Source: Syntrophales bacterium (GTDB taxonomy: Bacteria > Desulfobacterota > Syntrophia > Syntrophales > UBA6109). Taken from it: DNA of 64,000 nucleotides. This document shows, in pieces, positions 38,219 through 51,581 of this stretch; the stretch's first letter is position 1, and each line of letters starts with the position of its first letter. Under the pieces are notes generated by a model. It was not told the origin of the DNA. It made no database searches and saw only the letters and a program-made list of their open reading frames with translations. Location of the stretch: NCBI GenBank assembly GCA_035366835.1, contig DAOSIS010000005.1, forward strand, positions 52 to 64,051, in the 5' to 3' direction. Position numbers and translations under genes: made by a program.

Positions 38219-39436
38219 ATGGCAAGAGAGTTGGAAGGAATCCGTATCGTAGAAGTGGGCGGAGCGGTGGCAATGCCGCTTCCGGGGGTCCTCCTGGGCA
38301 GCTGGGGGGCGGAGGTGATTCACGTCGAACCGCCCGGGAAGGGTGACAACTGGCGGCATGTGCTCGGGCAGGGCATGGCCGGCTGGGCGAAACCGCATCC
38401 GATCAACTATTACTGGGAGCATGCGGACCGCAACAAGAAAAGCATCTGCATCAACCTGGCCTCGGCGGAAGGTCAGGCCGTGCTGCACAAGCTCATCGCC
38501 TCCGCCGACATCTTCGTCAACAACCTCAGGCCCTACGAGATGAAGAAATTCAATCTTACGTACGAGGCCATGTCCAAACTCAACCCCAGGCTGATTTACG
38601 CAAATCTGACCGGTTACGGGACCAAGGGCCCGGAAGCGAACGCCGGCGGTTACGATACCGTGGGTTTCTGGGCGCGCAGCGGCGTCATGGATCTGATGCA
38701 CGATGCCGATTCGGCGCCGAACATCTCGCGGCCCTGCTACGGCGACAGCATCACTTCCCTGAGCCTTCTGGCCGGCATGCTGGCCGCGCTGTACATCCGC
38801 GAGAAGACCGGAGTCGCGCAGGCGGTCGAGATCTCGCTGTACAACACGGCCACCTGGGTGCTCGGGTTCGACATCGCCGGATGTCTGATTTCCGGGGAGG
38901 ATGTCGTGCGGCCGCAGCGCAAGACCATGGGAAACCCCATCCGCAACGTCTATCCCACAAAAGACGGCCGCTGGATCATGCTCGGCATGACGAACTCGCA
39001 GACCTACTGGGCGGGCTTCTGCAAGGCCATCGACCGGCCCGATCTCGAGAACGACCCGAAATTCGTCACGCAGGCAGCCAGGGCGCAGAACGCGGCGGAA
39101 CTGGTGCAGATCATCGAGGCGTACTTCAAGGTCCGGACGCTGGCGGAACTGCGGGACAAGCTGAACGCCAACAAGTGCATCTGGTCGCCTGCCGCGACGC
39201 CGCTGGAGGTGACGAAGGACGAGCAGGCCCTTGCGAACGACTTCTTCGTCGAGTGGGACCATCCCAAGTACGGGAAGATCAAGGTCATGAACAACCCGAT
39301 CAAGCTTTCCAAGACCAAGGCGGAAATCGCCTGCCCGGCGCCTGAATTGGGTCAGCACACGGGGGGTCTGATGAAAGGCCTCGGATACTCCGAGGACGAG
39401 ATCGCCAAGCTGAAGGCATCAGGCGCCGTCGCCTGA
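38219..39436 (+). CDS. family III (CaiB/BaiF/Frc-type) acyl-CoA transferase
   Basis: 405 aa; MARELEGIRIVEVGGAVAMPLPGVLLGSWGAEVIHVEPPGKGD...LNPRLIYANLTGYG..GP.....GYDTVGFWARSG...DHPKYGKIKVMNNPIKLS, the family fingerprint. Substrate not inferable. Confidence 0.85.
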   Translation: MARELEGIRIVEVGGAVAMPLPGVLLGSWGAEVIHVEPPGKGDNWRHVLGQGMAGWAKPHPINYYWEHADRNKKSICINLASAEGQAVLHKLIASADIFVNNLRPYEMKKFNLTYEAMSKLNPRLIYANLTGYGTKGPEANAGGYDTVGFWARSGVMDLMHDADSAPNISRPCYGDSITSLSLLAGMLAALYIREKTGVAQAVEISLYNTATWVLGFDIAGCLISGEDVVRPQRKTMGNPIRNVYPTKDGRWIMLGMTNSQTYWAGFCKAIDRPDLENDPKFVTQAARAQNAAELVQIIEAYFKVRTLAELRDKLNANKCIWSPAATPLEVTKDEQALANDFFVEWDHPKYGKIKVMNNPIKLSKTKAEIACPAPELGQHTGGLMKGLGYSEDEIAKLKASGAVA

Positions 39437-39455
39437 AACTTCCCGACCCTGCATC

Positions 39456-39481
39456 CCCCCGGCCGCCGTTCCGGCCGGGGG
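39456..39481 (+). terminator. GC-rich hairpin after the CoA-transferase gene (candidate terminator)
   Basis: CCCCCGGCC-GCCGTTCC-GGCCGGGGG, a perfect 9-bp stem. The trailing T-tract is weak (TGCTTTCC). Confidence 0.45.
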
Positions 39482-39688
39482 TGCTTTCCTGCGGGCCGGG
39501 CAATCCCGGGCTTCCTCCGCCGCGTCATTTGTCCGAAATTGTTCGGCCCGTCTCTCGGGGACAAGGGGGGCCTCCGGTTTGTTGCCGGACTGCGTATTCT
39601 GTCTCATCTTGATGCTCCTGTTGCAGAAAGACACGACCCGCCGTCTCTCCGAGATGGCGACGGCGGAGAGTCCGTGGATGGTCGAGGC

Positions 39689-41782
39689 ATGATGCGGACA
39701 CCTTACAGACAGGACAGCGACTTCAATCCATCCGTTCACCAGCGCCCGCTGCTCGCCGCGTGGAAACGGTTCCTCGAAACCGGTCAGATCACGGCCGACG
39801 TCATTCCGCCGCACATCGCCGAATCGTGGAAACAGAGCCGCGCGAAGGGCGTGGATCCTTTTGTCTGCTCACGCTCGGCGCGACTGGACCCGGGCAGCTT
39901 TGAACGGCGCATCGCCGACCTGCAGTATCTCATCTACATCGCAAAACCTTTCATGGAAAAGATCTATCCGTCGCTCGATCCCCGTCGCTACCTGGTGGTC
40001 CTGTACGACGCGGAGGGATATCATCTGCTGCGGATGGGACGGGTGGCCGCGTTCGAGCGTATCAGCGGTTTTCACATCGAGGGGGGGATCTGTTTCGGGG
40101 AGAACAAGATCGGGACCTGCGGCTTCTCGCTCGTCAAGAAGTTGCGAAGACCCGTTCAGATCGCCGGCTGCGAACACTATGCCGCTTTCATGCATCGCAT
40201 CGTCGGCTCCTACGCGCCCATCAACGACCCCGTCGAGGGCGCCCTGATGGGTGTCATCGGCATTGCCGGGGCGATGACCATGCCCAACCAGCAGACGTTG
40301 GATACGATCGCGTCCGCCAGTGCGGCCATTGAAGATTCCATCAAGCAGGACCACGCACGGCGGATCTTCTCGGTGCAGGGCCGGACGCTGCAGACCATGA
40401 TCGATCACCTGGACGAGGGGATCGCCCTGATCGACCGGGAAGGAAGAATCGCCGAAATCAATCTCGCGGCGAGGACCATTTTCGGCCTCACCGGCGAGGA
40501 CGCGAAAGGTCGGCGGTTGGAGGACATTCTCTCTGCGCCCGAGGCGAGGGGGCTTCTCTCGCTCGCGGAAGGCGATTCGGCCGGATGCGATCGCCCGCTG
40601 GAGATCAGCATCCGCAGCAAGCCCTATGCCGTCCGGGGCCGGCCGGTCCGGGATCCGAAAGAGGGAGACATCGGCCGGATGATCGACCTCAAGGCGCTGC
40701 CGCCGTCTGCAAGAAGTGCGAAGAGGCCGGCGGCGGATCAGGATCCGGTCAAACCGCCGAAGGAAAGCCATCCTCCGCGGAATCCCGTCAGGGAGACCGG
40801 CGCGACGAAGGTCTTCTTTGACACGATGATCGCGTCGAGCTCCAAGATGACGGAGTTGATCGGACTCGGCAGGATGGCGGCGCGCTCCGGCGCCAATATC
40901 ATCATCGAAGGGGAAAGCGGCACCGGCAAGGAGATCTTTGCGCACGCCATACACAACGAGAGCACCCGCAGGGACGCTCCCTTCGTGGCGATCAACTGCT
41001 CGGCCATTCCCGGTGAATTGATGGAGTCCATCCTCTTCGGCCACGAGCAGGGGGCGTTCACGGGGGCACACCAGACGCACATCGGAAAATTCGAGCTTGC
41101 GGACGGCGGCACCGTCTTTCTGGACGAGATCGGCGAGATGCCGGCCGCCATGCAGGCGAAGCTGCTCCGCGTGCTGGAGGAAAAAACGATCGAACGCGTC
41201 GGCGGCAAGAAGGTCCGCCGCGTCGACGTGCGGATCGTCGCCGCTACGAACCGCAACCTCCTCAAGGAAATCCACGCCAACCGGTTCCGCGAGGACCTCT
41301 ATTACCGTTTGAATGTCTTTCGCATCGCCCTGCCCCCCCTGCGCGAACGCAAGCAGGAGATCCGTCATCTCGTCCCCTTCTTCGTGCGGCAGTTCGGTCC
41401 CCTCTTCAACAAGACCGTGGAAAGGATCCAGGAAGACTACTACCGTTGCCTCATGGACTACCCCTGGCCCGGGAACATCCGCGAACTCCGCAACGCCGTC
41501 GAATACTCGATCGCCGTTCTGAACGGCCCGGTCCTGGCGGCGGAGCACGTCCTCGGCTTCTTCCGCCAGCCTTCCGCCGACGGCAACGATCCGGCGGACA
41601 GGACCTTCCCGGGAGGACCGTTGCCCGGCCTCCTCCTGTCGGAACTGGGAGACGCGGCGATCCGCAACGCGCTCAGTGCCGCCGACGGCCACAAGACGAA
41701 GGCGGCGCGGATGCTGGGGATCAGCCGGACCACGCTGCACCGTAGACTCAAGCGAATGGCGGTGCAAGGACCGCCGCAATAG
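39689..41782 (+). CDS. sigma-54-dependent enhancer-binding transcriptional activator (AcoR-like sensory N-terminus, PAS, AAA+, Fis-type HTH)
   Basis: Walker A GESGTGKE, GAFTGA loop (EQGAFTGA), Walker B VFLDEIGEM, C-terminal HTH KTKAARMLGISRTTLHRRLKR. Start taken at MMRTPY inside ORF 39539..41782. Confidence 0.9.
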   Translation: MMRTPYRQDSDFNPSVHQRPLLAAWKRFLETGQITADVIPPHIAESWKQSRAKGVDPFVCSRSARLDPGSFERRIADLQYLIYIAKPFMEKIYPSLDPRRYLVVLYDAEGYHLLRMGRVAAFERISGFHIEGGICFGENKIGTCGFSLVKKLRRPVQIAGCEHYAAFMHRIVGSYAPINDPVEGALMGVIGIAGAMTMPNQQTLDTIASASAAIEDSIKQDHARRIFSVQGRTLQTMIDHLDEGIALIDREGRIAEINLAARTIFGLTGEDAKGRRLEDILSAPEARGLLSLAEGDSAGCDRPLEISIRSKPYAVRGRPVRDPKEGDIGRMIDLKALPPSARSAKRPAADQDPVKPPKESHPPRNPVRETGATKVFFDTMIASSSKMTELIGLGRMAARSGANIIIEGESGTGKEIFAHAIHNESTRRDAPFVAINCSAIPGELMESILFGHEQGAFTGAHQTHIGKFELADGGTVFLDEIGEMPAAMQAKLLRVLEEKTIERVGGKKVRRVDVRIVAATNRNLLKEIHANRFREDLYYRLNVFRIALPPLRERKQEIRHLVPFFVRQFGPLFNKTVERIQEDYYRCLMDYPWPGNIRELRNAVEYSIAVLNGPVLAAEHVLGFFRQPSADGNDPADRTFPGGPLPGLLLSELGDAAIRNALSAADGHKTKAARMLGISRTTLHRRLKRMAVQGPPQ

Positions 41783-41930
41783 TCTTATTCTGACACACCG
41801 GGTCTTGTCACTTGTTTCATAGAGAAACAACCTTGCCCCCTCCACGAATCCGTTCCCTGCCGGCCTTGTCGAGGCCAATATCCTGAATTGACGAGTCAAT
41901 CGGTTTTCGGCCGGCGGCTGCATTTCCGGC

Positions 41931-41946
41931 TGGCATAGGTCCTGCA
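41931..41946 (+). promoter_or_regulatory. sigma-54 (-24/-12) promoter
   Basis: TGGCATAGGTCCTGCA against consensus TGGCACG-N4-TTGCW. GG and GC are at the exact 12-nt register, 66 nt upstream of the ATG at 42012 and directly downstream of the sigma-54 activator gene. Confidence 0.75.
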
Positions 41947-42011: not shown

Positions 42012-43277
42012 ATGGCAAGAATTTACGAACATCAGGGGAAGCAGTTGCTCGCCGGAGCCGGACTTCGAGTTCCGCGGGGCGAAGTCGCGACGACGCCGGA
42101 GCAGGCGAAGGAAATCGCCCGCAGGATCGGCAAACGCGTGGTGATCAAGGCGCAGGTGTGGACGACGGGGCGGTTCAAGGCCGGCGGGATCAAGTTCGCC
42201 GATACGCCGGAGGAAGCCTGCGTGCGGGCCCGGCAGGTCCTGGAGACGAACATCAAGGGACTTCCCGTGACCAAGGTCCTTGTCGAGGAACTCCTGAAAG
42301 TCGCCCACGAGTACTATGTCGGCATCGTCGTGAACTCGTCCGTGAACATCAAGGCGCCGGTTCTTGTCTTCAGCACGGAGGGCGGAACGGGAATCGAGGA
42401 GGTCGCGGCGAGAAACCCCGAACGTGTCGGGAAACTCCTGATCGATGCGATCGACGGACTGGACATCGGGAGGGTCCGCGACCTTCTGACCCGGATGAAG
42501 GTCGAAGAGGAGCGGCGGGAAGAACTCGCCAACGCGATCTGGGGCCTCTACCGGGTCTTCCGCGATTACGATGCCCGGTCCATTGAGATGAATCCCCTGG
42601 TCTGGACGGACGACGGCCAGGCGTACGCGGCCGATTGCCACGTGACGCTCGATGACGGCTCCATCTTCCGCCACCCCGAATTCGGCATCGAGGTTCCGCG
42701 CGATATGGAGCGGGAACCGACGAAGCTGGAAAAGCTCGCCTGGACGCATATCGAGGAGAGCGATTATCGCGGCACGGGTTATTTTGCGCAGATGGTGACG
42801 GACTACAGGGGGGACAAGGTCTACGTCGGTTTTCACGGGATCGGCGGCGGCGGTTCGATGCTGGGGGCGGCGGCCCTGATCAACAAGGGTTTGAAGATCG
42901 CCAACTACGCCGACACCAGCGGGGATCCGCCCGCCAGCAAGGTGTACAAGGTGGTCAAGGCGATCTTTTCCCAGCCGATCTCCGCGTACGTCATGACCGG
43001 CGCCTGCCTTGCGAACCAGGAGCAGTGGTATCACGCATTCGCGCTGGTCAAGGTCCTCCGGGAGGAGCTCCGGGACCGTCCGGGATTCCCCGTTCTCATC
43101 CTGATTGCCGGCAACCGGGAAAAGGAGGCCATTCAAATTCTGAAAGACGGGCTGAAGGACATGGATATCCGCCTGGAGATCTACGGCCGGGAGTACATCT
43201 ATCGTTCCGACTACATCGGTGAACGCGCGGAAAAGCTCATCGCCGAGTACTTGAATGAAGAAAGGGGGGCGGAGTGA
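42012..43277 (+). CDS. ATP-grasp beta-like subunit of an acyl-CoA synthetase (NDP-forming), ATP-citrate-lyase / citryl-CoA-synthetase branch
   Basis: 421 aa; MARIYEHQGKQLLAGAGLRVPRG...VVIKAQVWTTGRFKAGGIKF (ATP-grasp). C-terminal half HGIGGGGSMLGAAALINKGLKIANYADTSGDPPASKVY resembles the ACL '..ANYGEYSGAPSE..' segment rather than the SucC '..ANFLDVGGGA..' segment (recalled from memory, no alignment run). Confidence 0.75.
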   Translation: MARIYEHQGKQLLAGAGLRVPRGEVATTPEQAKEIARRIGKRVVIKAQVWTTGRFKAGGIKFADTPEEACVRARQVLETNIKGLPVTKVLVEELLKVAHEYYVGIVVNSSVNIKAPVLVFSTEGGTGIEEVAARNPERVGKLLIDAIDGLDIGRVRDLLTRMKVEEERREELANAIWGLYRVFRDYDARSIEMNPLVWTDDGQAYAADCHVTLDDGSIFRHPEFGIEVPRDMEREPTKLEKLAWTHIEESDYRGTGYFAQMVTDYRGDKVYVGFHGIGGGGSMLGAAALINKGLKIANYADTSGDPPASKVYKVVKAIFSQPISAYVMTGACLANQEQWYHAFALVKVLREELRDRPGFPVLILIAGNREKEAIQILKDGLKDMDIRLEIYGREYIYRSDYIGERAEKLIAEYLNEERGAE

Positions 43278-43278
43278 A

Positions 43279-43620: not shown

Positions 43621-43624
43621 CGCC

Positions 43625-44527: not shown

Positions 44528-44546
44528 ACACAAGGGGAGGGTGGGA

Positions 44547-45587: not shown

Positions 45588-45620
45588 CATATCGGCGGAG
45601 CGGAGCGCTCCGCCGATATG
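45588..45620. terminator. perfect 14-bp inverted repeat (operon boundary hairpin / candidate terminator or protein-binding site)
   Basis: CATATCGGCGGAGC-GGAGC-GCTCCGCCGATATG. No flanking T-tract on either strand. Confidence 0.4.
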
Positions 45621-45666: not shown

Positions 45667-45695
45667 TTGACACATAGCGGGTTCATCGCTATAAG
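45667..45695 (+). promoter_or_regulatory. sigma-70 promoter of the SDH-like operon
   Basis: TTGACA, exactly 17 nt, then TATAAG, 125 nt upstream of the ATG at 45820. Confidence 0.7.
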
Positions 45696-45819: not shown

Positions 45820-46647
45820 ATGAAGGTTCTGGAGGAGCGTCGCGGGCTCAGCGTCGCGCTGCTGCAGGTTCTGGAGAGGTTGCCGGTTCTTTCCTGCTAC
45901 GCGAAGACCCACGGGTGGAACTACGTCGTCAGCTGGTTGCATCGCCTGACGGGGATCGGCCTCGTCGTTTACCTGGGCATTCACCTTTACACCCTTTCGT
46001 CGCTTTCCACGCCGTCCGTCTACGACGCGAAGATGAGGATAATGTATCTGCCGATCGTCGTATTCCTTGCCTGGGCCTCGTCGCTGATGGTCGCGTTTCA
46101 CGCCCTGAACGGAGGCCGGCTGATCCTTTACGAGTCCTTCGGAAACCGGAACGACGAGACGATGATCCGCTGGACCTTCGGCCTGACCGTCTCGTATGCG
46201 CTCCTGCTGGGCATTCTCATGCTGATGAACAATCAGAACGTTTCGGCGGTCTTCTTCTGGCTGCTGACATTTTTCGCCGGCCTGGCCACAGCGTACGCCG
46301 TTGCGTCCCGCATCTGGAACACCAAGCACTCGGCCTGGTGGAAGCTCCAGCGGATCAGCGGCGCCTTCCTGGTCATCGCGATTCCGGCGCATCTGGTCTT
46401 CTCGCACCTCAACCCGGGGATGGCGCAGGAGGCGCAGGCGGTGATCGCCCGCATGCAGAATCTCTTCATCCGCTTCGTCGATCTGGTCCTTGCGGCCGCG
46501 GCGCTGTACCACACCGGCTACGGGCTCTACTCGATCGCTACGGATTACGTCTCCGCCGGTGCGGTCCGGACGGCTCTGGCGGTCCTGATCGCCGTCGTCG
46601 TCGCCGTGTTCGGCTTTCTGGCGCTCAAGTTGACACTGTTCATCTAA
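45820..46647 (+). CDS. fused SdhC-SdhD-like membrane anchor (cytochrome b) of a complex II paralogue
   Basis: 275 aa, about 6 TM helices. The N-half (WLHRLTGIGLVVYLGIHLY...AFHALNGGRLI) parallels the separate SdhC at 58544. The C-half (WWKLQRISGAFLVIAIPAHLVFSHL...LYHTGYGLYSI) parallels SdhD at 58995 (LHMAVVHL...LYHGFYGLRTI). Confidence 0.75.
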   Translation: MKVLEERRGLSVALLQVLERLPVLSCYAKTHGWNYVVSWLHRLTGIGLVVYLGIHLYTLSSLSTPSVYDAKMRIMYLPIVVFLAWASSLMVAFHALNGGRLILYESFGNRNDETMIRWTFGLTVSYALLLGILMLMNNQNVSAVFFWLLTFFAGLATAYAVASRIWNTKHSAWWKLQRISGAFLVIAIPAHLVFSHLNPGMAQEAQAVIARMQNLFIRFVDLVLAAAALYHTGYGLYSIATDYVSAGAVRTALAVLIAVVVAVFGFLALKLTLFI

Positions 46648-46664: not shown

Positions 46665-48461
46665 ATGGGAAACAAGCTGCAAATCTCTGCAACGCTGAAC
46701 TGTGATGTCCTGATCGTCGGAGCCGGGGGCGCGGGTCTTCGCTGCGCCGCGCACCTTCTCGAACACAAGCCGAACTTGAAGATTTTCGCGGTGACGAAGG
46801 TGTCGCACCCGCAGAAGTCCCACACGAGCACGGCCCAGGGCGGGCTGGCCGCCGTGGATCCGAAGGACAAGACGGACAAGCCGATCTACCACATGTTCGA
46901 TACCTGGAAGGGCGGGGACTGCTCTTCCGACCAGGACGTGGTCAAGAAGATCGTCGAGGGCGGCTGGGACGAGATCCGCTGGCTGGAGGGCCGCGGGATG
47001 CACCTGAGCCGGGACGAGGAGGGAAACATCAGCAAGCGCCAGTTCGGGGGGCACACCAACGAATTCGGCAAGGGAGACGTGTTCCGCGCCGTCTTCGAGG
47101 CCGACCGGACGGGCAAGGGCATGATGGACACGGCCTGGGGCGAGGCGCTCAAGCACGGGTCGGTCTTCATCAATTCCGCGGTCGTCACGGAGCTCCTCTT
47201 CAACGAGGGGTGCTGCGTCGGCGCGGTGCTCTACAAGATCCGGGACGGCGAATTCGTCACGGTGCTGGCGAAGGCGACCGTTCTGGCGACGGGCGGCTCG
47301 GGTCAGGTTTTCCGGATCACGACGAACTGCCGCGGCAACACGGGCGACGGCATCGCCGTGGTTCTCCGTGCCGGACTGCCGGTCATGGACCCCGAGGCCG
47401 TCCAGTTTCACCCGACGGGGATCGTGGGGCCGGGGATCCTGGCCAGCGAGGCCCTGCGGAGCGAAGGCGGGATCCTGCGCAACAAGGACATGGAGCCGTT
47501 CATGGACCGCTACGCCCCGAAGATGAAGAACCTCGCGCCCCGGGACATCGTGGCCCGCTCCATCGAGACGGAGATCCGGGAAGGCCGTGGCATCATGAAC
47601 CCCGACCACCAGATCGAGCACGTCTGGATCGACCTGCGGCATCTGCCGGACTACGTCCACGAAGTGAAGCTCAAGGAAGTGGCGAGCTTCTTCAAGACTT
47701 ACGCCAATCTGGATTCGCGCACGCAACTCTGCCCGGTGCGTCCTTCCAACCACTACCACATGGGAGGCATTCCGACCAACGCCTTCGGGGAGGTCCAGGG
47801 CGACAGCGGCCGGATCGTGCCGGGCCTCTTCGCCGTGGGGGAATGCGCCTGTGCGAGCTTCCACGGATTCAACCGCCTGGGCACCAACTCCCTGCTGGAA
47901 CTCCTGACGATGGGCCGGTACGTGGGAGAGCGCGTCGAGACCTATCTTTCGGAAAAGCCGATTTCCGCCCCCAAGGGCGCGGGCGAGGCGAGCCTGTCCC
48001 TGTTCTCGTCGTATCTGTCGGGAACGGGGAAGGAGAACGTCGGGCGGGTCCGTCTGGAGATGCGCGACATGATGACGCGCAAGGTCGGCGTTTTCCGGCA
48101 CGAAAAGGGCGTCTCCGAAGCGATCCAGGAGTTGATGGCGTTCAAGGAGCGGGCGGGGAAGACGTCGGTATCGGTCCGGGATGCGAGATGGAACCAGGAA
48201 TTGCTCGAGCGGTGGGAACTGGACAACCTGCTGGACAATGCCATGACCATGGCCCAGGGGGCGCTGCTCAGGAAGGAATCGCGCGGCGCGCATTTCCGTG
48301 AGGACTACCCGGTGCGCAGCGACGAGTTCCAGTACCATACCCTCGTGTCCATGACCGAATTCGGCAAGGTGACCTTCGGGAGGCGTGCCATCGACATGAG
48401 CCTCTTCAACGCCAAGGACGAATACTCCGAGCACTTCAAGATCATCCCGAGGAAGTATTGA
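46665..48461 (+). CDS. succinate dehydrogenase/fumarate reductase-type flavoprotein subunit (paralogue 1, Gln-type)
   Basis: 598 aa; DVLIVGAGGAGLR, FAD-linking SHTSTAQGG, FHPTG, LRSEGG, HYHMGG, NRLGTNSL, ESRGAHFREDYP. Internal ATG of ORF 45915..48461 after AAGGGGGA. Confidence 0.9.
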   Translation: MGNKLQISATLNCDVLIVGAGGAGLRCAAHLLEHKPNLKIFAVTKVSHPQKSHTSTAQGGLAAVDPKDKTDKPIYHMFDTWKGGDCSSDQDVVKKIVEGGWDEIRWLEGRGMHLSRDEEGNISKRQFGGHTNEFGKGDVFRAVFEADRTGKGMMDTAWGEALKHGSVFINSAVVTELLFNEGCCVGAVLYKIRDGEFVTVLAKATVLATGGSGQVFRITTNCRGNTGDGIAVVLRAGLPVMDPEAVQFHPTGIVGPGILASEALRSEGGILRNKDMEPFMDRYAPKMKNLAPRDIVARSIETEIREGRGIMNPDHQIEHVWIDLRHLPDYVHEVKLKEVASFFKTYANLDSRTQLCPVRPSNHYHMGGIPTNAFGEVQGDSGRIVPGLFAVGECACASFHGFNRLGTNSLLELLTMGRYVGERVETYLSEKPISAPKGAGEASLSLFSSYLSGTGKENVGRVRLEMRDMMTRKVGVFRHEKGVSEAIQELMAFKERAGKTSVSVRDARWNQELLERWELDNLLDNAMTMAQGALLRKESRGAHFREDYPVRSDEFQYHTLVSMTEFGKVTFGRRAIDMSLFNAKDEYSEHFKIIPRKY

Positions 48462-48497
48462 ATGAAGGCTTCTTCGCCGCAAATACAGGAGGAAGGT

Positions 48498-49208
48498 ATG
48501 TCCAAGATCTTCTCGCTGACCCTGACGATCAAGCGCTACGATCCCGATGCGGAGAAAACCTGGTTCCAAACCTACAAACTGGAGGCGGGGGGCATCCTGC
48601 GCTTCGTCGATCTGTTCCGGAGAATCAACGTGGAGCAGGACGCCACGCTGAGCTGGGCGTCCTCGTGCGAACACGGGCAGTGCGGGAGCTGTTCCGTGAA
48701 GATCAACGGCCGGCCGATGCTGGCCTGCGAGCTTCTGGTGGAAAACGCCGTCGAGCTGTTCGGCACCACGGAATTCAAGATCGAGCCCGTGACGGTCGCT
48801 CCGGTGATCCGGGACCTGGTCGTGGATTGGGAAAAGGCCTACGAACGGGTCCACCGCGCGAAACCCTACGTGATTTCGCCCAAGCAGCTTCCGCCCGGCG
48901 TCACGGAGCACGTCATTTCCCCGCAGGAAATCGCCAGGTACGAAGACGCCACGCGCTGCATCAACTGCTTCTGCTGCGCCACCGCCTGCATCAGCTCCCA
49001 CAGGAGCTTCATCGGCCCCAATGCCGCCATGGCCAGCATCGTGCGCATGATGGATACGAGGGAAACGGCGAAGGAGGAAAGACTGGATCTCCTGTACAGC
49101 GAAGAGGGGGTCTACCGCTGCCACACCTCGAAGGCCTGCACGCACGTCTGCCCCAAGAAGATCGACGTGGCCCACTTCATCGCCCTGGCGAAGGAAGGGG
49201 AGTTTTGA
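48498..49208 (+). CDS. complex II iron-sulfur subunit (paralogue 1)
   Basis: 236 aa; [2Fe-2S] SCEHGQCGSCSVKINGRPMLAC, then CINCFCCATAC and CHTSKACTHVCP clusters. ATG after AGGAGGAAGG. Confidence 0.9.
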   Translation: MSKIFSLTLTIKRYDPDAEKTWFQTYKLEAGGILRFVDLFRRINVEQDATLSWASSCEHGQCGSCSVKINGRPMLACELLVENAVELFGTTEFKIEPVTVAPVIRDLVVDWEKAYERVHRAKPYVISPKQLPPGVTEHVISPQEIARYEDATRCINCFCCATACISSHRSFIGPNAAMASIVRMMDTRETAKEERLDLLYSEEGVYRCHTSKACTHVCPKKIDVAHFIALAKEGEF

Positions 49209-49279
49209 TCGCTCGGGTGACCTGACTGCGGAGAGGCGATCGACGCCGCCCGCCGAACTTCGGAACAGGAGGGAAGACC

Positions 49280-50629
49280 ATGCCGAAGGAAATTCTCGCC
49301 GACCAACTGGCAAAATATTTCTGCGGGCTTCGCTTCGAAGACCTGGGAAAAGAGCATGTCGCCAACATGAAGGGGTACATCCTGGACTGGCTGGGTTCGG
49401 CCTACGCGGGCAGGGATCTGCCGCCGGTCCGGATGATGCGGAGCGTCGCCGGTAGTCTCGGCGGCAAGCCGGAGTCGACCTCCATTCCCGACGGCACCAA
49501 GACCAGCTGCATCCTGGCGGCGCTGGTGAACGGCGCGACATCCCACGTCGTCGAGATGGACGACCTGCACCGGGAGTCGATCCTTCATCCGGCCTGCGCC
49601 ATCCTTCCCGCGGTCCTCGCCCTTGGGGAGCGGCAGCACGCCCCGGGCAGGGATCTGATCCTTGCGGCCTCCGCCGGCTACGAAGTGGGCATCCGCGTGG
49701 CCCTGGCCGTGGGGACGAGCCATTACTACTCCTGGCATACGACGGCGACCTGCGGGACCTACGGCGCGGCGGCGGGTGCGGCCAAGCTGCTGGGCCTCGA
49801 CGAGGATCAATTCGCATGGGCCCTGGGGTCGGCGGGAACGCAGGCGGCCGGACTCTGGGAATTCCTGGTGGAATGCGCCATGAGCAAGCAGCTCCACCCG
49901 GGCAAGGCGGCGATGAACGGTCTCCTGGCGGCCCTGCTGGCGAAGGAGGGGTTCACGGGCGCACGCAGGATCCTGGAAGGCGAGAAGGGGTTCTTCCGCG
50001 CCACGTCGAAGAACTTCGATGAGGGCAAGTGCACGGCGGACCTCGGAAAGGTCTTCCACGGCGACCGCAATTCCATCAAGTACCACGCCTCCTGCGGTCA
50101 CACCCACTCCGCCATCGACGCCGTGCAGCTGGCCACCGGCGGCAGGACCCTGAAAGCGGCGGAGGTCGCGGACGTCCGCATCCAGGTTTATCAGGCGGCG
50201 ATCGACCTCCTGGGGAACGTCGAGGCGAAGTCGCCGTACCTCGCGAAATTCAATCTGCCGTTCTGCATCGCCACGGCGCTGCTCTTCGGGCACGTCCGGC
50301 TGGACGATTTCAGCGAAGCGCGCCTGGCCGACGCCGAGATCCGGAACCTGATGTCCAAGGTTTCTTTCACGGTCGATCCCGAATTGACGAAGGCCTATCC
50401 GCGCAAGTGGCCCGCCCGCGTGACGATCACCCTTGCCGACGGTCGGAAGCTGGAGGCCTGCAACGAATACCCGAAAGGCGATCCGGAAAATCCCCTGACG
50501 GCGTCCGAACTGGTCGCGAAATTCAAGAGCCTTACCGCCGGGATTCTCTCCGGGGCGCAGGCAGACCGGATCGTCGAGAAGGTGATGAATCTGGAAAAGA
50601 TCGCCGATGCAAACGAACTGCTCTCGTGA
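49280..50629 (+). CDS. MmgE/PrpD family protein (2-methylcitrate dehydratase-like)
   Basis: 449 aa; ...LDWLGSAYAG...ALVNGATSHVVEMDDLH...HPACAILPAVLALGE... family pattern. Substrate unknown. Confidence 0.85.
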   Translation: MPKEILADQLAKYFCGLRFEDLGKEHVANMKGYILDWLGSAYAGRDLPPVRMMRSVAGSLGGKPESTSIPDGTKTSCILAALVNGATSHVVEMDDLHRESILHPACAILPAVLALGERQHAPGRDLILAASAGYEVGIRVALAVGTSHYYSWHTTATCGTYGAAAGAAKLLGLDEDQFAWALGSAGTQAAGLWEFLVECAMSKQLHPGKAAMNGLLAALLAKEGFTGARRILEGEKGFFRATSKNFDEGKCTADLGKVFHGDRNSIKYHASCGHTHSAIDAVQLATGGRTLKAAEVADVRIQVYQAAIDLLGNVEAKSPYLAKFNLPFCIATALLFGHVRLDDFSEARLADAEIRNLMSKVSFTVDPELTKAYPRKWPARVTITLADGRKLEACNEYPKGDPENPLTASELVAKFKSLTAGILSGAQADRIVEKVMNLEKIADANELLS

Positions 50630-50693
50630 GCGGCTTTTCCCGTTCCGGATTGCGAGTCCGGCGGATGAAAAATGAAGACTGAGGAGGTATGTC

Positions 50694-51581
50694 ATGGCCG
50701 GGAAAGAATTGCACGGCATCTTCCCCTATCTCGTCACACCCCTGGATGAACAGGGACACCTCAAGGAGCAGGTGCTGGCCGATGTCGTCGATCACCTCAT
50801 CCGTCAGGGCGTCCACGGCGTCACGCCGCTGGGCAGCACCGGCGAGGCCCCCTATCTGGACTGGGCGACGAGAAAGAAAACCGTGGAGGTTGTCGTGAAC
50901 GCCGCGGCCGGGCGCGTCCCGGTCGTCGCGGGGATCTGCAACATGTCGACACCGGGGGCCGTGCGTGAGGCCGTGGAAATCGAGAAACTGGGCGTCGACG
51001 GCATCCTGACCATCATGCCCAGCTACTTCCCCTTGGGAGAGCCGCAGGTCGTCGGCCACTTCCGCGCCATCGCCAAGGCCGTGAACTGCCCCATCACGCT
51101 CTACACCAATCCGAAATTCCAGACCTGGGACTTCACGGTGGATGCGTTGAAGCAGCTCGCCGAGGAACCGAACATCCAGTACCTGAAAGATGCTTCCGGA
51201 AACGTCGGGAAGATCATGTCCATTGTCTCCACGCTCGGCAGCCGGATCAAGATCTTCAGCGATACCTCTTCCGTCCCGCTGTTCATGTTCCTGATCGGGG
51301 GCGCCGGCTGGATGTCGGGGCCCGCCTGCATCATACCGAAGCAGAGCATCGAGCTCTACGAAACGGCGAGGCAGAAGAGATGGGAGGAGGCGGCGCAGCT
51401 GCAGATCAAGCAGTGGCCCATGAACGTCGCCTTCCAGCGGTTCTCCCTGTCGGCCTGCGTGAAGGCGGGTCTGGAAATGCAGGGATTTCCCGTAGGGCCC
51501 CCCATGCCGCCGCAAAAGCGGCTGAACCCCGAGGAGAGAAAGGCCCTGGAAAAGATCCTCCGGGACATCGGCGCGCTGTAA
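50694..51581 (+). CDS. DapA/NAL-family class I (Schiff-base, pyruvate-type) aldolase or dehydratase
   Basis: 295 aa; GIFPYLVTPLDEQG, LGSTGEAPYL, IMPSYFP, candidate Schiff-base Lys in IQYLKDASGN. Not obviously a true dihydrodipicolinate synthase. Confidence 0.8.
   Translation: MAGKELHGIFPYLVTPLDEQGHLKEQVLADVVDHLIRQGVHGVTPLGSTGEAPYLDWATRKKTVEVVVNAAAGRVPVVAGICNMSTPGAVREAVEIEKLGVDGILTIMPSYFPLGEPQVVGHFRAIAKAVNCPITLYTNPKFQTWDFTVDALKQLAEEPNIQYLKDASGNVGKIMSIVSTLGSRIKIFSDTSSVPLFMFLIGGAGWMSGPACIIPKQSIELYETARQKRWEEAAQLQIKQWPMNVAFQRFSLSACVKAGLEMQGFPVGPPMPPQKRLNPEERKALEKILRDIGAL

What the first reader, a model, noticed from the sequence alone, without database searches (positions are those of the whole stretch)
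38219..51581. Sigma-54-controlled metabolic island with a gene combination matching no pathway I know (candidate route for a substituted succinate or tricarboxylate)
Eleven co-directional genes sit within 13.4 kb:
- a family III CoA-transferase
- a sigma-54 enhancer-binding protein with a sensory N-terminus
- a sigma-54 promoter
- an ACL/citryl-CoA-synthetase-type two-subunit ligase
- a CitE-type acyl-CoA lyase
- a complete extra complex II (fused anchor + flavoprotein + Fe-S subunit)
- a PrpD/MmgE protein
- a DapA-family aldolase.
Each family is well known, but the combination suggests a coherent chemical logic. A succinate-like backbone is dehydrogenated (SDH paralogue). The resulting enoate is hydrated or dehydrated (PrpD family, or the class I hydro-lyase 4 kb downstream). 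The hydroxy-acid is thioesterified (ligase and/or CoA-transferase). The product is then cleaved to acetyl-CoA plus an oxo-acid (CitE).
Routes that fit this logic:
- tricarballylate -> cis-aconitate -> citrate -> citryl-CoA -> oxaloacetate + acetyl-CoA
- methylsuccinate -> mesaconate -> citramalate -> citramalyl-CoA -> pyruvate + acetyl-CoA
- succinate -> malate -> malyl-CoA -> glyoxylate + acetyl-CoA, with the DapA-like aldolase handling glyoxylate and pyruvate.
The substrate cannot be decided from sequence.
Basis: partly seen in the sequence, partly recalled or inferred. Interest (0 to 1): 0.78.

Follow-up and report, generated by a model that had tools for sequence, protein, structure and literature searches.

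The report
Uncharacterised ATP-driven acid-splitting gene cluster
The eleven genes are real, and their core is a four-gene unit (a two-subunit CoA ligase, a small cysteine-rich protein and a CitE-type lyase) that recurs in about 100 uncultured anaerobic bacteria and archaea and has never been characterised; it most likely splits a malate-like acid into acetyl-CoA plus an oxo-acid.

Summary
All eleven co-directional genes are present with the stated families, in a Syntrophales MAG.

- **Invariant core.** LigB – Cys-rich orfX – LigA – CitE (42012-45479) keeps this order in about 100 independent loci from Desulfobacterota, Dehalococcoidia, Bathyarchaeia, Nezhaarchaeota and Desulfurococcales. orfX is often fused to LigB.
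- **Usual neighbours.** A PrpD-family gene sits nearby in 21 of 27 well-flanked loci and an SdhA-family flavoprotein in 16 of 27. FumAB-like hydratases, PrpF and transporters are frequent. DapA, the CoA-transferase and the membrane-bound SDH are rare partners.
- **Sigma-54 control.** The sigma-54 promoter and an upstream palindrome are real. They recur with an orthologous activator (55% identical) in other genomes. Here they probably drive only the four-gene operon, because SdhCDAB-PrpD-DapA has its own sigma-70-like promoter behind a strong hairpin.
- **Not an island.** Nothing marks the region as horizontally acquired.
- **Substrate.** LigB has an ACL/citryl-CoA-synthetase-type acid-binding domain but lacks the Arg-Arg pair of the citrate enzymes. 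This argues for a 2-hydroxy-dicarboxylate (citramalate or malate), not citrate.

Best reading: an inducible route for a 2-substituted succinate, most plausibly methylsuccinate → mesaconate → citramalate → citramalyl-CoA → pyruvate + acetyl-CoA. The substrate is not proven.

The parts
38219..39436 (+). Family III CoA-transferase, probably a dicarboxylate:succinyl-CoA transferase type. It is an accessory gene, not a core one.
   Evidence: Pfam CoA_transf_3, full length. No NCBIfam cut-off is reached. Best PDB relatives are human succinate-hydroxymethylglutarate/glutarate CoA-transferase (E 3e-50) and a benzylsuccinate CoA-transferase subunit. A homologue lies near the module in L001 (70% identity), L006, L032 and L099.
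39689..41782 (+). Sigma-54 enhancer-binding protein with a MimR_N-type sensory domain, PAS, AAA+ and Fis-type HTH domains.
   Evidence: It is 55% identical over its full length, including the sensory N-terminus, to the activator that heads the FumAB'-TfrAB'-PrpD-LigB-orfX-LigA-CitE operon in L019.
41813..41829 (+). Palindrome TGTTTCAtagaGAAACA, the probable activator binding site (UAS).
   Evidence: It is the only perfect match in the window to TGTYTCA-N4-GAAACA. The same motif stands upstream of the sigma-54 promoters of L019, L027 and L029; L030 and L034 carry related repeats (TGTCTCAcaatGAGACA, TGAAACA).
41931..41945 (+). Sigma-54 (-24/-12) promoter TGGCATaggtcCTGC, 67 nt upstream of LigB.
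   Evidence: Orthologous loci carry TTGGCAT-N5-TTGCT or TTGGCAC-N5-TTGCA 55-122 nt upstream of their first gene.
42012..43277 (+). LigB, the beta subunit of an NDP-forming acid-CoA ligase. It has a SucC-like ATP-grasp domain plus an ACL/citryl-CoA-synthetase-type acid-binding domain.
   Evidence: Pfam ATP-grasp_2 and Citrate_bind (33 bits, cut-off 26.8). It is below the SucC and malate-CoA-ligase cut-offs. The C-terminal domain aligns only to CCS (6HXQ_B) and AclB (6HXJ_A). Family-specific A-[NS]-Q-E-Q-W motif; L-[IL] replaces the RR of the citrate enzymes.
43279..43620 (+). orfX, a small four-cysteine protein and probable Fe-S (or metal) subunit of the ligase. An alternative start is at 43255.
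   Evidence: No Pfam or NCBIfam hit. Present in 87 of 91 loci between LigB and LigA. Fused in frame to LigB in 9 of 13 genome loci. Archaeal copies carry C-x4-C-x3-C and C-x2-C-x2-C-x3-C; four Cys are conserved family-wide: C24, C40 and C82 invariant, C36 in at least 90% of the 27-sequence alignment (re-confirms the three invariant Cys). Only 27 hits among 1.84 billion representatives. AlphaFold2 pLDDT 89.8. No significant PDB fold match; the weak top hits are ferredoxin modules.
43625..44527 (+). LigA, the alpha subunit (CoA-binding, phosphohistidine loop ...FSHASAII...).
   Evidence: Pfam CoA_binding, Succ_CoA_lig and Ligase_CoA. NCBIfam sucD alpha scores 265 bits against a cut-off of 336. 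Sequence. Identification of the His loop rests on my recollection of E. coli SucD GHAGAII.
44547..45479 (+). CitE-type beta-hydroxyacyl-CoA lyase.
   Evidence: Pfam HpcH_HpaI and C-C_Bond_Lyase. NCBIfam citE 203 against 443, RipC_Ccl 168 against 375, malyl-CoA lyase 93 against 500. Best PDB match is Methylobacterium malyl-CoA lyase 5UGR, E 8e-37. Follows LigA in 71 of 73 loci.
45588..45620 (+). Perfect 15-bp inverted repeat. It is a strong RNA hairpin and the probable 3' end or attenuation point of the ligase-lyase operon.
   Evidence: Folding energy -38.3 kcal/mol, z = -4.0. There is no U tract, so terminator function is inferred only.
45667..45695 (+). Sigma-70-like promoter TTGACA-17 nt-TATAAG, about 125 nt upstream of SdhCD.
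   Evidence: Read directly from the sequence. The tool's stricter scan did not list it because the last base is G.
45820..46647 (+). Fused SdhC+SdhD membrane anchor of complex II paralogue 1.
   Evidence: Two Sdh_cyt stretches. NCBIfam cytochrome b556 subunit (residues 33-122) and hydrophobic anchor (174-269), both above cut-off.
46665..48461 (+). SdhA1 flavoprotein.
   Evidence: Passes TIGR01812 (583.5 against 567.3) but not sdhA_forward (573 against 727). It keeps the covalent-FAD His, HPTG, and the Arg, His and Arg of the dicarboxylate site (the E. coli reference was recalled from memory). 65% identical to the L004 copy, which also lies next to a PrpD gene.
48498..49208 (+). SdhB1 iron-sulfur subunit.
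   Evidence: Pfam Fer2_3 and Fer4_8. NCBIfam dhsB scores 188.6 against a cut-off of 88.
49280..50629 (+). MmgE/PrpD-family enzyme, predicted to be an epimerase, isomerase or hydratase acting on a 2-substituted succinate.
   Evidence: Pfam hits to both domains. It is far below the PrpD cut-offs. H89, E92, H103, Y149, H153, K203 and K267 match the full residue set of IDS-epimerase and methylsuccinate isomerase, including the second-base Tyr (with PMC12290011). It is 38-61% identical to module-linked PrpD proteins.
50694..51581 (+). DHDPS/DapA-family class I aldolase-type protein. Its role is unknown and its association with the module is weak.
   Evidence: Pfam DHDPS. It is below the dapA cut-off (168 against 206). 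343 bits to the uncharacterised structural-genomics entry 3EB2. The only match near the module elsewhere is a weak one (28% identity) in L056.
55348..56758 (+). Two-subunit class I fumarase. It lies outside the finding and is the only candidate hydratase in the window.
   Evidence: Pfam Fumerase and Fumerase_C. It is only 30-37% identical to the FumA'/FumB' genes that sit inside the module operons of other genomes, so its participation is inferred.

Best explanation
The stretch encodes an inducible catabolic system for a 2-substituted C4-dicarboxylic acid, organised as several transcription units.

Core operon (42012-45479):
- It encodes an ADP/GDP-forming acid-CoA ligase of the succinyl-CoA-synthetase / ATP-citrate-lyase superfamily (LigB + LigA) with an extra four-cysteine, probably Fe-S, subunit (orfX), followed by a CitE-type lyase.
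- Inferred reaction: 2-hydroxy-dicarboxylate + ATP + CoA gives a 2-hydroxyacyl-CoA, which is cleaved to acetyl-CoA plus a 2-oxo-acid.
- The adjacent sigma-54 activator senses the substrate or a related acid. It binds the palindrome at 41813 and fires the -24/-12 promoter at 41931.

Second unit (SdhCDAB1-PrpD-DapA-like, own promoter), which feeds the core:
- The PrpD-family enzyme epimerises or isomerises the substituted succinate as the free acid.
- The complex II paralogue oxidises it to the enoate.
- A class I fumarase-type hydratase makes the hydroxy-acid. Other genomes encode this hydratase inside the operon. Here only the copy at 55348 is available.

Most likely substrate family: C5-branched acids, that is (R/S)-methylsuccinate to mesaconate to (S)-citramalate to citramalyl-CoA to pyruvate + acetyl-CoA. 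Itaconate, mesaconate and citramalate could enter at later steps.

Shown: gene families, conserved synteny, the regulatory elements and the residue patterns. Inferred: every reaction, its direction and the substrate.

My confidence is about 0.7 in the ligase-plus-lyase mechanism and about 0.4 in the C5-branched substrate.
For: - **Core synteny.** LigB>orfX>LigA>CitE is kept in 87/91, 82/83 and 71/73 of loci with room, across two domains of life.
- **orfX belongs to the ligase.** It is fused to LigB in many genomes.
- **Accessory genes fit one chemistry.** PrpD is present in 21/27 well-flanked loci, an SdhA-family flavoprotein in 16/27 and FumA-like in 9/27. TfrB-CCG, DUF1847 and PrpF also recur. 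Binding-protein, TRAP/TAXI and MFS transporters point to uptake.
- **Complete operons exist elsewhere.** EBP-FumA'-FumB'-DUF1847-TfrA'-TfrB'-x-PrpD-LigB-orfX-LigA-CitE-MFS-PBP occurs in L019 and L029; L027, L030 and L034 carry it with small variations (DUF1847, x or the MFS-PBP tail missing).
- **Same regulator.** The activator is 55% identical and has the same sigma-54 promoter; L019, L027 and L029 also share the window's UAS motif, with related repeats in L030 and L034.
- **Ligase acid-binding site.** It aligns with CCS and AclB and keeps the GGGG and A-N loop, but the RR of both citrate enzymes is invariably L-[IL]. From my memory of Sun et al. 2010 (JBC 285:27418), the loop binds the OH and the central carboxylate of citrate, and Arg379 binds the pro-R carboxylate. 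Loss of that Arg therefore fits a substrate with CH3 or H in place of CH2COO-.
- **PrpD residues.** The protein carries the His/Tyr two-base set of methylsuccinate isomerase and IDS epimerase (PMC12290011).
- **Biochemical precedent.** E. coli SDH oxidises methylsuccinate to mesaconate and FumA hydrates mesaconate to citramalate (bioRxiv 10.64898/2026.01.16.699985). Methylsuccinate is formed anaerobically by itaconate reduction.
- **No reassignment to a known pathway.** No gene reaches an equivalog cut-off of a known pathway.
Against: - No enzyme of this module has been assayed, and the substrate rests on context and a few residues.
- The window itself lacks an operon-encoded hydratase.
- SdhA1 has a fully canonical succinate/fumarate site. 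Residues tried as discriminators (E. coli F119, T254) do not separate cluster-linked from housekeeping enzymes.
- In L004 the SdhCDAB1 type sits beside an ordinary-looking SucCD and a fumarase, so it may simply be a TCA enzyme.
- Malic enzyme and a fumarase (housekeeping-type in the window and L083) lie next to the module in the window, L021 and L083, which suits a C4 route.
- The accessory flavoproteins are heterogeneous, and several lack the fumarate-site residues.
- 'Type B' clusters carry three PrpD paralogues and a dihydropyrimidinase-like amidohydrolase, which the methylsuccinate scheme does not explain.
- The role of the Cys-rich subunit is unexplained.
- The pathway direction is inferred only from transporters and the inducible regulator.
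Confidence: 0.5

Rival explanations
1. C4 route through malyl-CoA. LigAB is a malate-CoA ligase (malyl-CoA synthetase) and CitE a malyl-CoA lyase. It could run catabolically: succinate to fumarate to malate to malyl-CoA to acetyl-CoA + glyoxylate, with the DapA-like aldolase handling glyoxylate + pyruvate. It could also run as the anaerobic glyoxylate-oxidising cycle: glyoxylate + acetyl-CoA to malyl-CoA to malate + ATP, then malic enzyme to pyruvate to acetyl-CoA.
For: - The best solved relative of CitE is a malyl-CoA lyase (5UGR).
- The ligase site lacks the third-carboxylate Arg, which suits malate as well as citramalate.
- Malic enzyme, class I fumarase and a fumarate-reductase-type flavoprotein are adjacent to the module in the window (53841-60216), L021 and L083.
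- Anaerobic glyoxylate fermentation via malyl-CoA is described for Syntrophobotulus glycolicus and Moorella (as cited in PMC8092247). That an ATP-forming malyl-CoA synthetase takes part is my recollection of the Friedrich and Schink papers.
- MtkAB-Mcl of serine-cycle methylotrophs is the same two-step logic (my knowledge).
Against: - It does not explain why PrpD-family genes are the most constant partner (21/27).
- It does not explain why many genomes carry dedicated FumAB'/TfrAB' paralogues only 30-37% identical to housekeeping enzymes, sometimes beside a canonical SdhABCD (L020).
- LigB matches the malate-CoA ligase model only over the ATP-grasp half (145 bits against a cut-off of 604).
- No recognisable glyoxylate-consuming enzyme is conserved with the module.
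Confidence: 0.22
2. Tricarboxylate route: a third kind of ATP-dependent citrate cleavage. Tricarballylate or trans-aconitate is converted to cis-aconitate (by a flavoprotein or PrpF), then to citrate (by a PrpD-type hydratase), then to citryl-CoA (by LigAB), then to oxaloacetate + acetyl-CoA (by CitE). The reverse would be an ATP-yielding citrate or 2-methylcitrate synthase.
For: - The LigB C-terminal domain is of the Citrate_bind type, and its only solved relatives over that domain are citryl-CoA synthetase and AclB.
- The best NCBIfam model for the lyase is citE (203-216 bits).
- PrpD and PrpF are classic (methyl)aconitate enzymes, and PrpF lies beside CitE in L001 and L023 and elsewhere in the L074 and L102 loci.
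- Flavocytochrome-c/TcuA-like flavoproteins occur in type B clusters.
- CitG lies next to the module in L024.
Against: - The Arg-Arg pair present in both citrate-activating enzymes is replaced by invariant Leu-Ile/Leu. The Thr of the ANFT/ANNT motif is Glu, which is hard to reconcile with a third carboxylate.
- All scores to citE and PrpD models are far below cut-off.
- FumAB-type hydratases act on dicarboxylates (my knowledge).
- No aconitase or methylisocitrate lyase is linked to the module.
Confidence: 0.13
3. No dedicated pathway. The genes are ordinary central-metabolism paralogues (SucCD, SdhCDAB, a citrate-lyase remnant, a DapA paralogue) that merely lie together, with a nearby regulator.
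For: - Public annotation calls them succinyl-CoA synthetase, acetate-CoA ligase family, CoA ester lyase and FAD-binding protein.
- SdhA1, SdhB1 and the anchor pass generic complex II models.
- The locus lies in a housekeeping neighbourhood.
Against: - LigB and LigA fail the SucC and SucD cut-offs (212 against 370, 265 against 336).
- The four-gene order, with a private Cys-rich subunit, is conserved across phyla and domains.
- An orthologous activator, promoter and UAS accompany it elsewhere.
- A second, better-scoring complex II with fumarase and malic enzyme exists in the same window.
Confidence: 0.05

Closest known systems
Malate thiokinase + malyl-CoA lyase (MtkAB/Mcl) of serine-cycle methylotrophs, and the malyl-CoA route of anaerobic glyoxylate fermenters
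   Same: Both use a two-subunit SucCD-type NDP-forming ligase followed by a CitE-superfamily lyase. Both convert a 2-hydroxy-dicarboxylate to an acyl-CoA and then to acetyl-CoA + a 2-oxo-acid. The best solved relative of the window's lyase is a malyl-CoA lyase.
   Different: LigB's acid-binding domain is of the ACL/CCS type, not the SucC/MtkA type. An extra four-Cys subunit or domain is present. PrpD-family and enoate-converting genes are the usual partners. The hosts are strict anaerobes and archaea, not methylotrophs.
Citryl-CoA synthetase + citryl-CoA lyase (CcsAB/Ccl) and ATP-citrate lyase
   Same: The superfamily is the same, and the 'Citrate_bind' domain architecture of the beta subunit is the same. 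It is the only solved homologue over that domain. Both follow an ATP-driven two-step C-C cleavage logic.
   Different: The lyase is a CitE TIM-barrel enzyme, not a citrate-synthase-fold CCL. The Arg-Arg pair of the citrate enzymes is Leu-Ile/Leu. The context is an inducible catabolic one, not an rTCA context.
Pseudomonad/Cupriavidus itaconate-methylsuccinate cluster (Ict, Ich, Ccl, Mcd, Msi; Gonner et al. 2025, PMC12290011)
   Same: Both combine a family III CoA-transferase, a CitE-type lyase and an MmgE/PrpD protein. The end products (pyruvate + acetyl-CoA) are the same in the favoured reading. The PrpD protein keeps the His/Tyr two-base residue set of Msi.
   Different: In the known cluster activation is by CoA transfer, and oxidation and hydration take place on CoA esters (acyl-CoA dehydrogenase, MaoC hydratase). 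Here there is an ATP-dependent ligase, and SDH-type and fumarase-type enzymes that act on free acids. No Ich or Mcd homologue is present. The known Msi is almost confined to Pseudomonadota.
Engineered E. coli methylsuccinate module (SdhA F119L + FumA + citramalate lyase; bioRxiv 10.64898/2026.01.16.699985)
   Same: The free-acid sequence is identical: methylsuccinate to mesaconate to citramalate, then cleavage.
   Different: It is synthetic. It uses the ACP-dependent citramalate lyase and yields acetate, not acetyl-CoA, and it has no ligase.
Citrate lyase complex CitDEF
   Same: A CitE homologue is present.
   Different: There is no CitD (ACP) and no CitF in the cluster. The CoA thioester is made by an ATP-dependent ligase instead.

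Membership tests
Succinyl-CoA synthetase (SucCD) | Beta and alpha subunits reach the NCBIfam equivalog or subfamily cut-offs for SucC and SucD. | tested here: not met
   LigB scores 212.5 against 370 (PRK00696) and matches only residues 3-225. LigA scores 265 against 336.
Succinyl-CoA synthetase superfamily (NDP-forming acyl-CoA synthetases) | ATP-grasp beta subunit plus a CoA-binding/ligase alpha subunit with a phosphohistidine loop. | tested here: met
   Pfam ATP-grasp_2, CoA_binding, Ligase_CoA and Succ_CoA_lig. The ...FSHASAII... loop is in LigA. Identification of the His loop is from memory of SucD.
Malate-CoA ligase (MtkAB) | NCBIfam NF010647 (malate-CoA ligase beta) equivalog cut-off. 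| tested here: not met
   145 bits against 604, over the ATP-grasp half only.
Citryl-CoA synthetase / ATP-citrate lyase | ACL-type citrate-binding domain in the beta part. | tested here: met
   PF16114 Citrate_bind scores 33 bits against a cut-off of 26.8. The C-terminal domain aligns to 6HXQ_B and 6HXJ_A.
Citryl-CoA synthetase / ATP-citrate lyase | Basic residue pair (VRRGG / VRRNG) that, in human ACLY, salt-bridges the pro-R carboxylate of citrate. | tested here: not met
   The aligned positions 364-365 are L and I/L in all 24 family members examined. The functional role of the Arg is recalled from Sun et al. 2010 and was not re-read.
Citryl-CoA synthetase / ATP-citrate lyase | Partner lyase of the citrate-synthase fold (CCL, or the C-terminal module of ACL). 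| tested here: not met
   The partner is an HpcH_HpaI/CitE TIM-barrel protein.
Citrate lyase CitDEF | CitE accompanied by CitD (ACP) and CitF, with CitE reaching TIGR01588. | tested here: not met
   CitE scores 203 against 443. No CitD or CitF is among the cluster's gene products.
Itaconate/methylsuccinate degradation cluster (Ict-Ich-Ccl-Mcd-Msi) | RipC/Ccl equivalog, MaoC-type itaconyl-CoA hydratase and acyl-CoA dehydrogenase next to the PrpD-family isomerase. | tested here: not met
   RipC_Ccl scores 168 against 375. No hydratase of the MaoC type and no acyl-CoA dehydrogenase is in the cluster.
Methylsuccinate isomerase / IDS-epimerase-type MmgE/PrpD enzymes | Conserved carboxylate-binding residues plus a catalytic His and a second-base Tyr. 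| tested here: met
   H89, E92, H103, Y149, H153, K203 and K267 align with H85, D88, H99, Y145, H150, K198 and K266 of 2HP3 (residue list from PMC12290011). The set is also present in a B. subtilis homologue of unknown function, so it is necessary but not sufficient.
2-methylcitrate dehydratase PrpD | NCBIfam prpD equivalog cut-offs. | tested here: not met
   35-52 bits against cut-offs of 458-950.
Complex II (succinate:quinone oxidoreductase / fumarate reductase) | Flavoprotein, Fe-S subunit and Sdh_cyt anchor above the family cut-offs, with dicarboxylate-site residues. | tested here: met
   TIGR01812 583.5 against 567.3, TIGR00384 188.6 against 88, TIGR02970 62.3 against 52.3, TIGR02968 42.1 against 41.8. 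The FAD-His, HPTG, Arg, His and Arg are kept. Whether the substrate is succinate or a substituted succinate cannot be tested here.
Sigma-54-dependent operon | A bEBP gene, a GG-N10-GC promoter at a suitable distance, and an upstream inverted repeat. | tested here: met
   The same trio occurs in the orthologous loci L019, L027 and L029; L030 and L034 have the activator, the promoter and related upstream repeats. Transcription itself was not tested.
Genomic island | Deviant composition, a flanking tRNA or integrase or repeats, and patchy presence among close relatives. | tested here: not met
   GC is like the flanks. There is no tRNA and no mobility genes among the flanking ORFs scanned, and the flanks are housekeeping genes. 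Presence or absence in sister genomes could not be tested.
4-hydroxy-tetrahydrodipicolinate synthase (DapA) | TIGR00674 equivalog cut-off. | tested here: not met
   167.7 against 206. The closest solved protein is an uncharacterised paralogue, 3EB2.

The most novel reading that the evidence does not exclude
LigB-orfX-LigA-CitE may be a previously unrecognised, ancient and widespread ATP-coupled C-C lyase system. It would be the first NDP-forming acyl-CoA synthetase with an iron-sulfur subunit, paired with a CitE-type lyase. That would make it a third solution beside ATP-citrate lyase/CCS-CCL and malate thiokinase/malyl-CoA lyase. Together with PrpD-family isomerases and SDH/fumarase paralogues, it would give strict anaerobes (Syntrophales, Desulfobacterales, Dehalococcoidia, Bathyarchaeia, Nezhaarchaeota, Asgard archaea) a free-acid route for methyl- or alkyl-succinates, itaconate and mesaconate. 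These are compounds that accumulate anaerobically from itaconate reduction and from fumarate-addition chemistry. The Fe-S domain might couple ligase activity to cellular redox state.
Probability: 0.3. Interest if true: 0.85.

Novelty: new variant of a known kind. Interest (0 to 1): 0.68.

Why it matters
- **Scale.** More than 2,600 homologues of LigB score E ≤ 1e-50; the 120 best, all at least 58% identical, come from uncultured anaerobes of both domains. They are annotated as 'succinyl-CoA synthetase', 'acetate-CoA ligase family' or 'ATP-grasp protein', and the lyase as 'citrate lyase beta' or 'CoA ester lyase'.
- **Risk of misreading.** Such labels could feed directly into metagenomic reconstructions of TCA and reverse-TCA capacity, so the family may be misread as central metabolism or as evidence for citrate cleavage.
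- **Ecological value.** Knowing its substrate would assign a function to a common gene cluster of sediment, digester and hot-spring communities. It could reveal how branched or substituted dicarboxylates are mineralised without oxygen.
- **Enzymological value.** It would add an Fe-S-bearing member to a textbook enzyme superfamily.
- **Testability.** The module is small, soluble and well defined, so the question can be tested directly by heterologous expression.

Tried and rejected
- **First orfX model.** AlphaFold2 with a 27-sequence alignment gave pLDDT 59 and was not used. A 41-sequence alignment gave 89.8.
- **SdhA specificity residues.** I looked for determinants of methylsuccinate use at E. 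coli F119 and T254. F/L and T/S occur in both cluster-linked and housekeeping enzymes, so the result is inconclusive.
- **Sigma-54 pattern alone.** At two mismatches the consensus is not enriched in the window. The promoter call rests on position and on comparative evidence.
- **Literature searches.**
  - 'citryl-CoA synthetase' with CitE gave no relevant paper.
  - 'citramalate thiokinase', 'citramalyl-CoA synthetase' and similar terms gave zero papers.
  - DUF1847 gave zero papers.
  - Malate thiokinase combined with anaerobic and metagenome terms gave nothing on this module.
  - The ACLY citrate-site paper (PMC2930740) is not held, and searches for R379 were uninformative.
- **Cultured host.** None was found among the 120 best homologues in either search.
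- **Rejected readings.**
  - A housekeeping SucCD plus SDH: the cut-offs fail and the synteny is conserved.
  - Citrate lyase: no CitD or CitF.
  - A bona fide PrpD of a methylcitrate cycle: the scores are far below cut-off, and there is no PrpB or PrpC.

Full report
**1. What is in the window**

ORF listing, codon-position GC and profile searches confirm eleven co-directional genes between 38219 and 51581:
- a family III CoA-transferase;
- a sigma-54 enhancer-binding protein (MimR_N-type N-terminus, PAS, AAA+, HTH);
- LigB, with a SucC-like ATP-grasp domain plus a C-terminal domain that hits Pfam Citrate_bind;
- a 113-121 aa Cys-rich ORF with no family hit (orfX);
- LigA, which is SucD-like;
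- a CitE/HpcH lyase;
- a fused SdhC+SdhD anchor, SdhA and SdhB;
- an MmgE/PrpD protein;
- a DHDPS-family protein.

None of the ligase, lyase, PrpD, CoA-transferase or DapA-like proteins reaches an NCBIfam equivalog cut-off. Only the complex II subunits pass generic family cut-offs.

Exact-sequence look-ups place the organism in Syntrophales/Syntrophaceae MAGs from methanogenic reactors. The same gene string is present in at least 15 contigs, and the annotation is generic throughout.

**2. Surroundings**

The window starts with the rpoB-rpoC-sized ORFs (not profile-scanned) and the ribosomal-protein/secY/rpoA region. The cluster lies between rpsI-argC-cysS and a lipoprotein gene. GC content matches the flanks. 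No tRNA lies nearby, and no mobility genes were found among the flanking ORFs scanned. 'Island' is therefore not supported.

Downstream lie:
- malic enzyme;
- a two-subunit class I fumarase;
- a second complete complex II, in the order SdhA2, Sdh_cyt anchor, SdhB2. SdhA2 passes the PRK06069 cut-off, so this is the better housekeeping candidate;
- a TRAP transporter.

**3. The conserved unit**

I scanned one genome per species with LigB, scanned metagenome contigs with a LigB alignment and ran seven contig look-ups. This gave 100 non-redundant loci. tblastn mapping of reference proteins shows LigB>orfX>LigA>CitE in that order wherever the contig has room: orfX in 87/91, LigA in 82/83 and CitE in 71/73.

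The hosts named in the records are Desulfobacteraceae/Desulfosarcinaceae, Thermodesulfobacteriota, Dehalococcoidia, Bathyarchaeia, Nezhaarchaeota, Ignisphaera, Thermosphaera, a 'Sulfolobales' MAG and Hodarchaeota. All 120 best homologues in two searches come from MAGs or metagenomes.

In the 27 loci with at least 5 kb upstream and 7 kb downstream, the partners are:

| Partner | Loci (of 27) |
|---|---|
| PrpD family | 21 |
| SdhA-family flavoprotein | 16 |
| Binding-protein ABC transporter | 11 |
| FumA-like | 9 |
| GntR regulator | 8 |
| SdhB fused to CCG domains | 7 |
| DUF1847 | 6 |
| Sigma-54 activator | 4 |
| Family III CoA-transferase | 3 |
| PrpF | 2 |

The only DapA-like match anywhere is a weak one (28% identity) in L056. 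The window-type SdhCDAB recurs only in L004 (65-69% identity for SdhA and SdhB), again with a PrpD that is 61% identical.

**4. orfX belongs to the ligase**

In 9 of 13 genome loci orfX is fused in frame to the C-terminus of LigB. Archaeal versions carry C-x4-C-x3-C and the classic C-x2-C-x2-C-x3-C. Bacterial versions, including the window's, keep four cysteines: C24, C40 and C82 are invariant in both alignments, and C36 is kept in at least 90% of the 27-sequence alignment.

The family is very small. An exhaustive phmmer search over 1.84 billion cluster representatives finds 27 hits. Nearly all are stand-alone proteins of about 100 aa, and one is a LigB fusion.

A 41-sequence alignment gives a confident AlphaFold2 model (pLDDT 89.8), but Foldseek finds no significant PDB match. 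The weak top hits are ferredoxin-type Fe-S modules. I infer, but have not shown, that this is an Fe-S or other metal-binding subunit. I know of no NDP-forming acyl-CoA synthetase with such a subunit; that statement rests on my own knowledge.

**5. What the ligase probably binds**

E. coli-type SucC and malate-CoA ligase match only the ATP-grasp half of LigB. The C-terminal 168 residues match only Hydrogenobacter citryl-CoA synthetase (6HXQ_B) and Chlorobium AclB (6HXJ_A).

In those alignments LigB keeps the GGGG stretch and the G-x-x-x-A-N loop. Two differences stand out:
- The RR in VRRNG (CCS) and VRRGG (AclB) aligns with invariant L364 and I/L365 of the LigB family.
- ANNT/ANFT becomes A-[NS]-Q-E.

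From memory of Sun et al. 2010 (JBC 285:27418; the paper is not held), the loop binds the hydroxyl and the central carboxylate of citrate, and Arg379 salt-bridges the pro-R carboxylate. If so, the family keeps the 2-hydroxy-acid grip and has replaced the third-carboxylate clamp with hydrophobic residues. That is what citramalate (CH3) or malate (H) would need. This is a lead, not a test.

**6. The PrpD protein**

Its nearest solved relatives are a B. subtilis homologue of unknown function, IDS epimerase and cis-aconitate decarboxylases, all distant. Mapping the alignment to 2HP3 shows every residue that Gonner et al. (PMC12290011) list for IDS epimerase and methylsuccinate isomerase: H89, E92 (Glu as in the isomerase), H103, H153, K203, K267 and the second-base Tyr149, which the decarboxylases lack.

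The same paper shows three things. All known family substrates share a 1,4-dicarboxylate backbone substituted at C2/C3. The isomerase acts on free acids only. Methylsuccinate arises anaerobically from itaconate reduction.

The window's PrpD is 38-61% identical to module-linked PrpDs of L004, L009, L019 and others.

**7. Regulation**

The -24/-12 element at 41931-41945 is not significant by pattern count. However:
- The activator is 55% identical over its full length, sensory domain included, to the activator that heads the complete operons of L019, L027, L029, L030 and L034.
- Those loci carry near-consensus TTGGCAT-N5-TTGCT promoters 55-122 nt upstream of the first gene. L019, L027 and L029 also carry the palindrome TGTYTCA-N4-GAAACA; L030 and L034 have related repeats (TGTCTCAcaatGAGACA, TGAAACA).
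- That motif's only perfect match in the window is 102 nt upstream of the -24 element.

Downstream of CitE there is a perfect 15-bp inverted repeat (-38 kcal/mol, z = -4), then TTGACA-17-TATAAG about 125 nt before SdhCD. No activator motif is found there or upstream of the CoA-transferase.

I conclude that sigma-54 control is well supported for LigB-orfX-LigA-CitE. SdhCDAB-PrpD-DapA is probably a separate unit, although read-through is not excluded.

**8. Mechanism**

A flavoprotein of the SDH/FRD family interconverts a saturated and an unsaturated diacid. An Fe-S hydro-lyase of the fumarase/tartrate-dehydratase family, or possibly a PrpD-type enzyme, hydrates the enoate. The ligase makes the CoA ester. 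CitE cleaves it. Import systems and substrate-responsive regulators point to catabolism.

The C5-branched series explains the most genes:

| Gene product | Proposed role |
|---|---|
| PrpD | methylsuccinate epimerase |
| SDH or TfrAB' | methylsuccinate dehydrogenase |
| FumAB' | mesaconase |
| PrpF | itaconate/citraconate/mesaconate isomerase (Mii-type; my knowledge) |
| CoA-transferase | alternative activation |
| CitE | citramalyl-CoA lyase |

It also has experimental precedent as free-acid chemistry: E. coli SDH and FumA in the engineered methylsuccinate module.

The C4 (malyl-CoA) reading is favoured by the malic enzyme and fumarase neighbours in the window, L021 and L083, and by the known anaerobic malyl-CoA route for glyoxylate. 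It leaves PrpD and the dedicated paralogues unexplained.

The tricarboxylate reading is favoured by family names (Citrate_bind, citE, PrpD, PrpF, a TcuA-like flavoprotein) and disfavoured by the ligase residues.

Attempts to read substrate specificity from SdhA residues failed.

**9. Comparison with known systems and novelty**

In function the module resembles MtkAB/Mcl and CcsAB/Ccl. By membership tests it belongs to neither, nor to SucCD, CitDEF or the pseudomonad itaconate cluster. Full-text searches found no description of a citramalate-activating NDP-forming ligase, of DUF1847, or of this gene combination.

I therefore file it as a new variant of a known kind: an ATP-dependent two-step hydroxy-acid cleavage with a new subunit composition and a new, very broad anaerobic distribution.

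**10. Verdict**

The substrate-agnostic pathway logic is right. 'Island', the eleven-gene unit and a single sigma-54 regulon are not.
- Interest is 0.68, for three reasons. The cluster is not exotic chemistry, but it is a large, mis-annotated and untested family with an unexpected metal-binding subunit. It has a clear experimental path. It bears on how anaerobes use substituted dicarboxylates and on how TCA and rTCA genes are called in metagenomes.

Noticed in passing
window 53841-63266: There is a second complete complex II in the unusual order SdhA2 (56782-58533), Sdh_cyt anchor (58517-58981), SdhB2 (59317-60216). Malic enzyme and a two-subunit class I fumarase precede it and a TRAP DctPQM transporter follows. 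SdhA2 passes the PRK06069 cut-off, so this looks like the housekeeping C4 block.
   Followed up: partly
window 45588-45620 and 45667-45695: A perfect 15-bp inverted repeat (RNA hairpin of -38 kcal/mol, no U tract) is followed by TTGACA-17-TATAAG between CitE and SdhCD. Together they probably form an operon boundary.
   Followed up: partly
L018 10001-15318 (CP070710.1, 2.4-Mb Deltaproteobacteria MAG): An orphan LigB homologue has no orfX, LigA or CitE. It is followed by hydantoinase A/B-type (acetone/acetophenone-carboxylase-like) genes and an HGD-D protein. It is one of three loci with room downstream that lack the full module (L065 and L103 lack orfX, L103 also CitE).
   Followed up: no
L022 7660-21269 and about 20 similar loci (L039, L042, L047, L058, L060, L063, L077, L082, L088, L101 and others): This is a 'type B' architecture: GntR regulator, PrpD, module, a second PrpD, a flavocytochrome-c-type flavoprotein (passes TIGR01813; weaker TcuA similarity) and a third PrpD. 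L022 also has a dihydropyrimidinase/allantoinase-like amidohydrolase and ABC-transporter permeases; several other loci have a binding-protein gene. It suggests a related but different substrate, possibly an N-substituted or cyclic derivative.
   Followed up: partly
L024 13630-14619 (Nezhaarchaeales, 1.6-Mb contig): A CitG (triphosphoribosyl-dephospho-CoA synthase) gene lies directly beside the module. The module is preceded there by a TAXI-type TRAP transporter.
   Followed up: no
L007 and L008 (Bathyarchaeia): The module is flanked by several pyrogallol-transhydroxylase-like molybdoenzymes with 4Fe-4S subunits. A LUD-domain (LutC-like) gene follows CitE, and the same is seen in L096.
   Followed up: no
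L021 13366-15744: A 792-aa HdrA/MvhD-like protein (FAD_oxidored, several 4Fe-4S, FlpD) follows CitE. Separate CCG and 4Fe-4S proteins, a flavoprotein, malic enzyme and fumarase precede LigB. This hints at electron-bifurcating or thiol-linked redox coupling.
   Followed up: no
window 50694-51581: The DapA-like protein is a close relative (343 bits) of PDB 3EB2, an uncharacterised structural-genomics 'putative DHDPS'. It fails the dapA equivalog cut-off, so it belongs to an unstudied aldolase subfamily.
   Followed up: partly
L019 8246-8578, L020 9584-9865, L026-L029, L034: A small protein of about 110 aa with a weak CDC48_N hit sits between the SdhB-CCG gene and PrpD in type A operons. DUF1847 (Cys-rich) is also a regular member. 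No paper in the library mentions DUF1847.
   Followed up: partly
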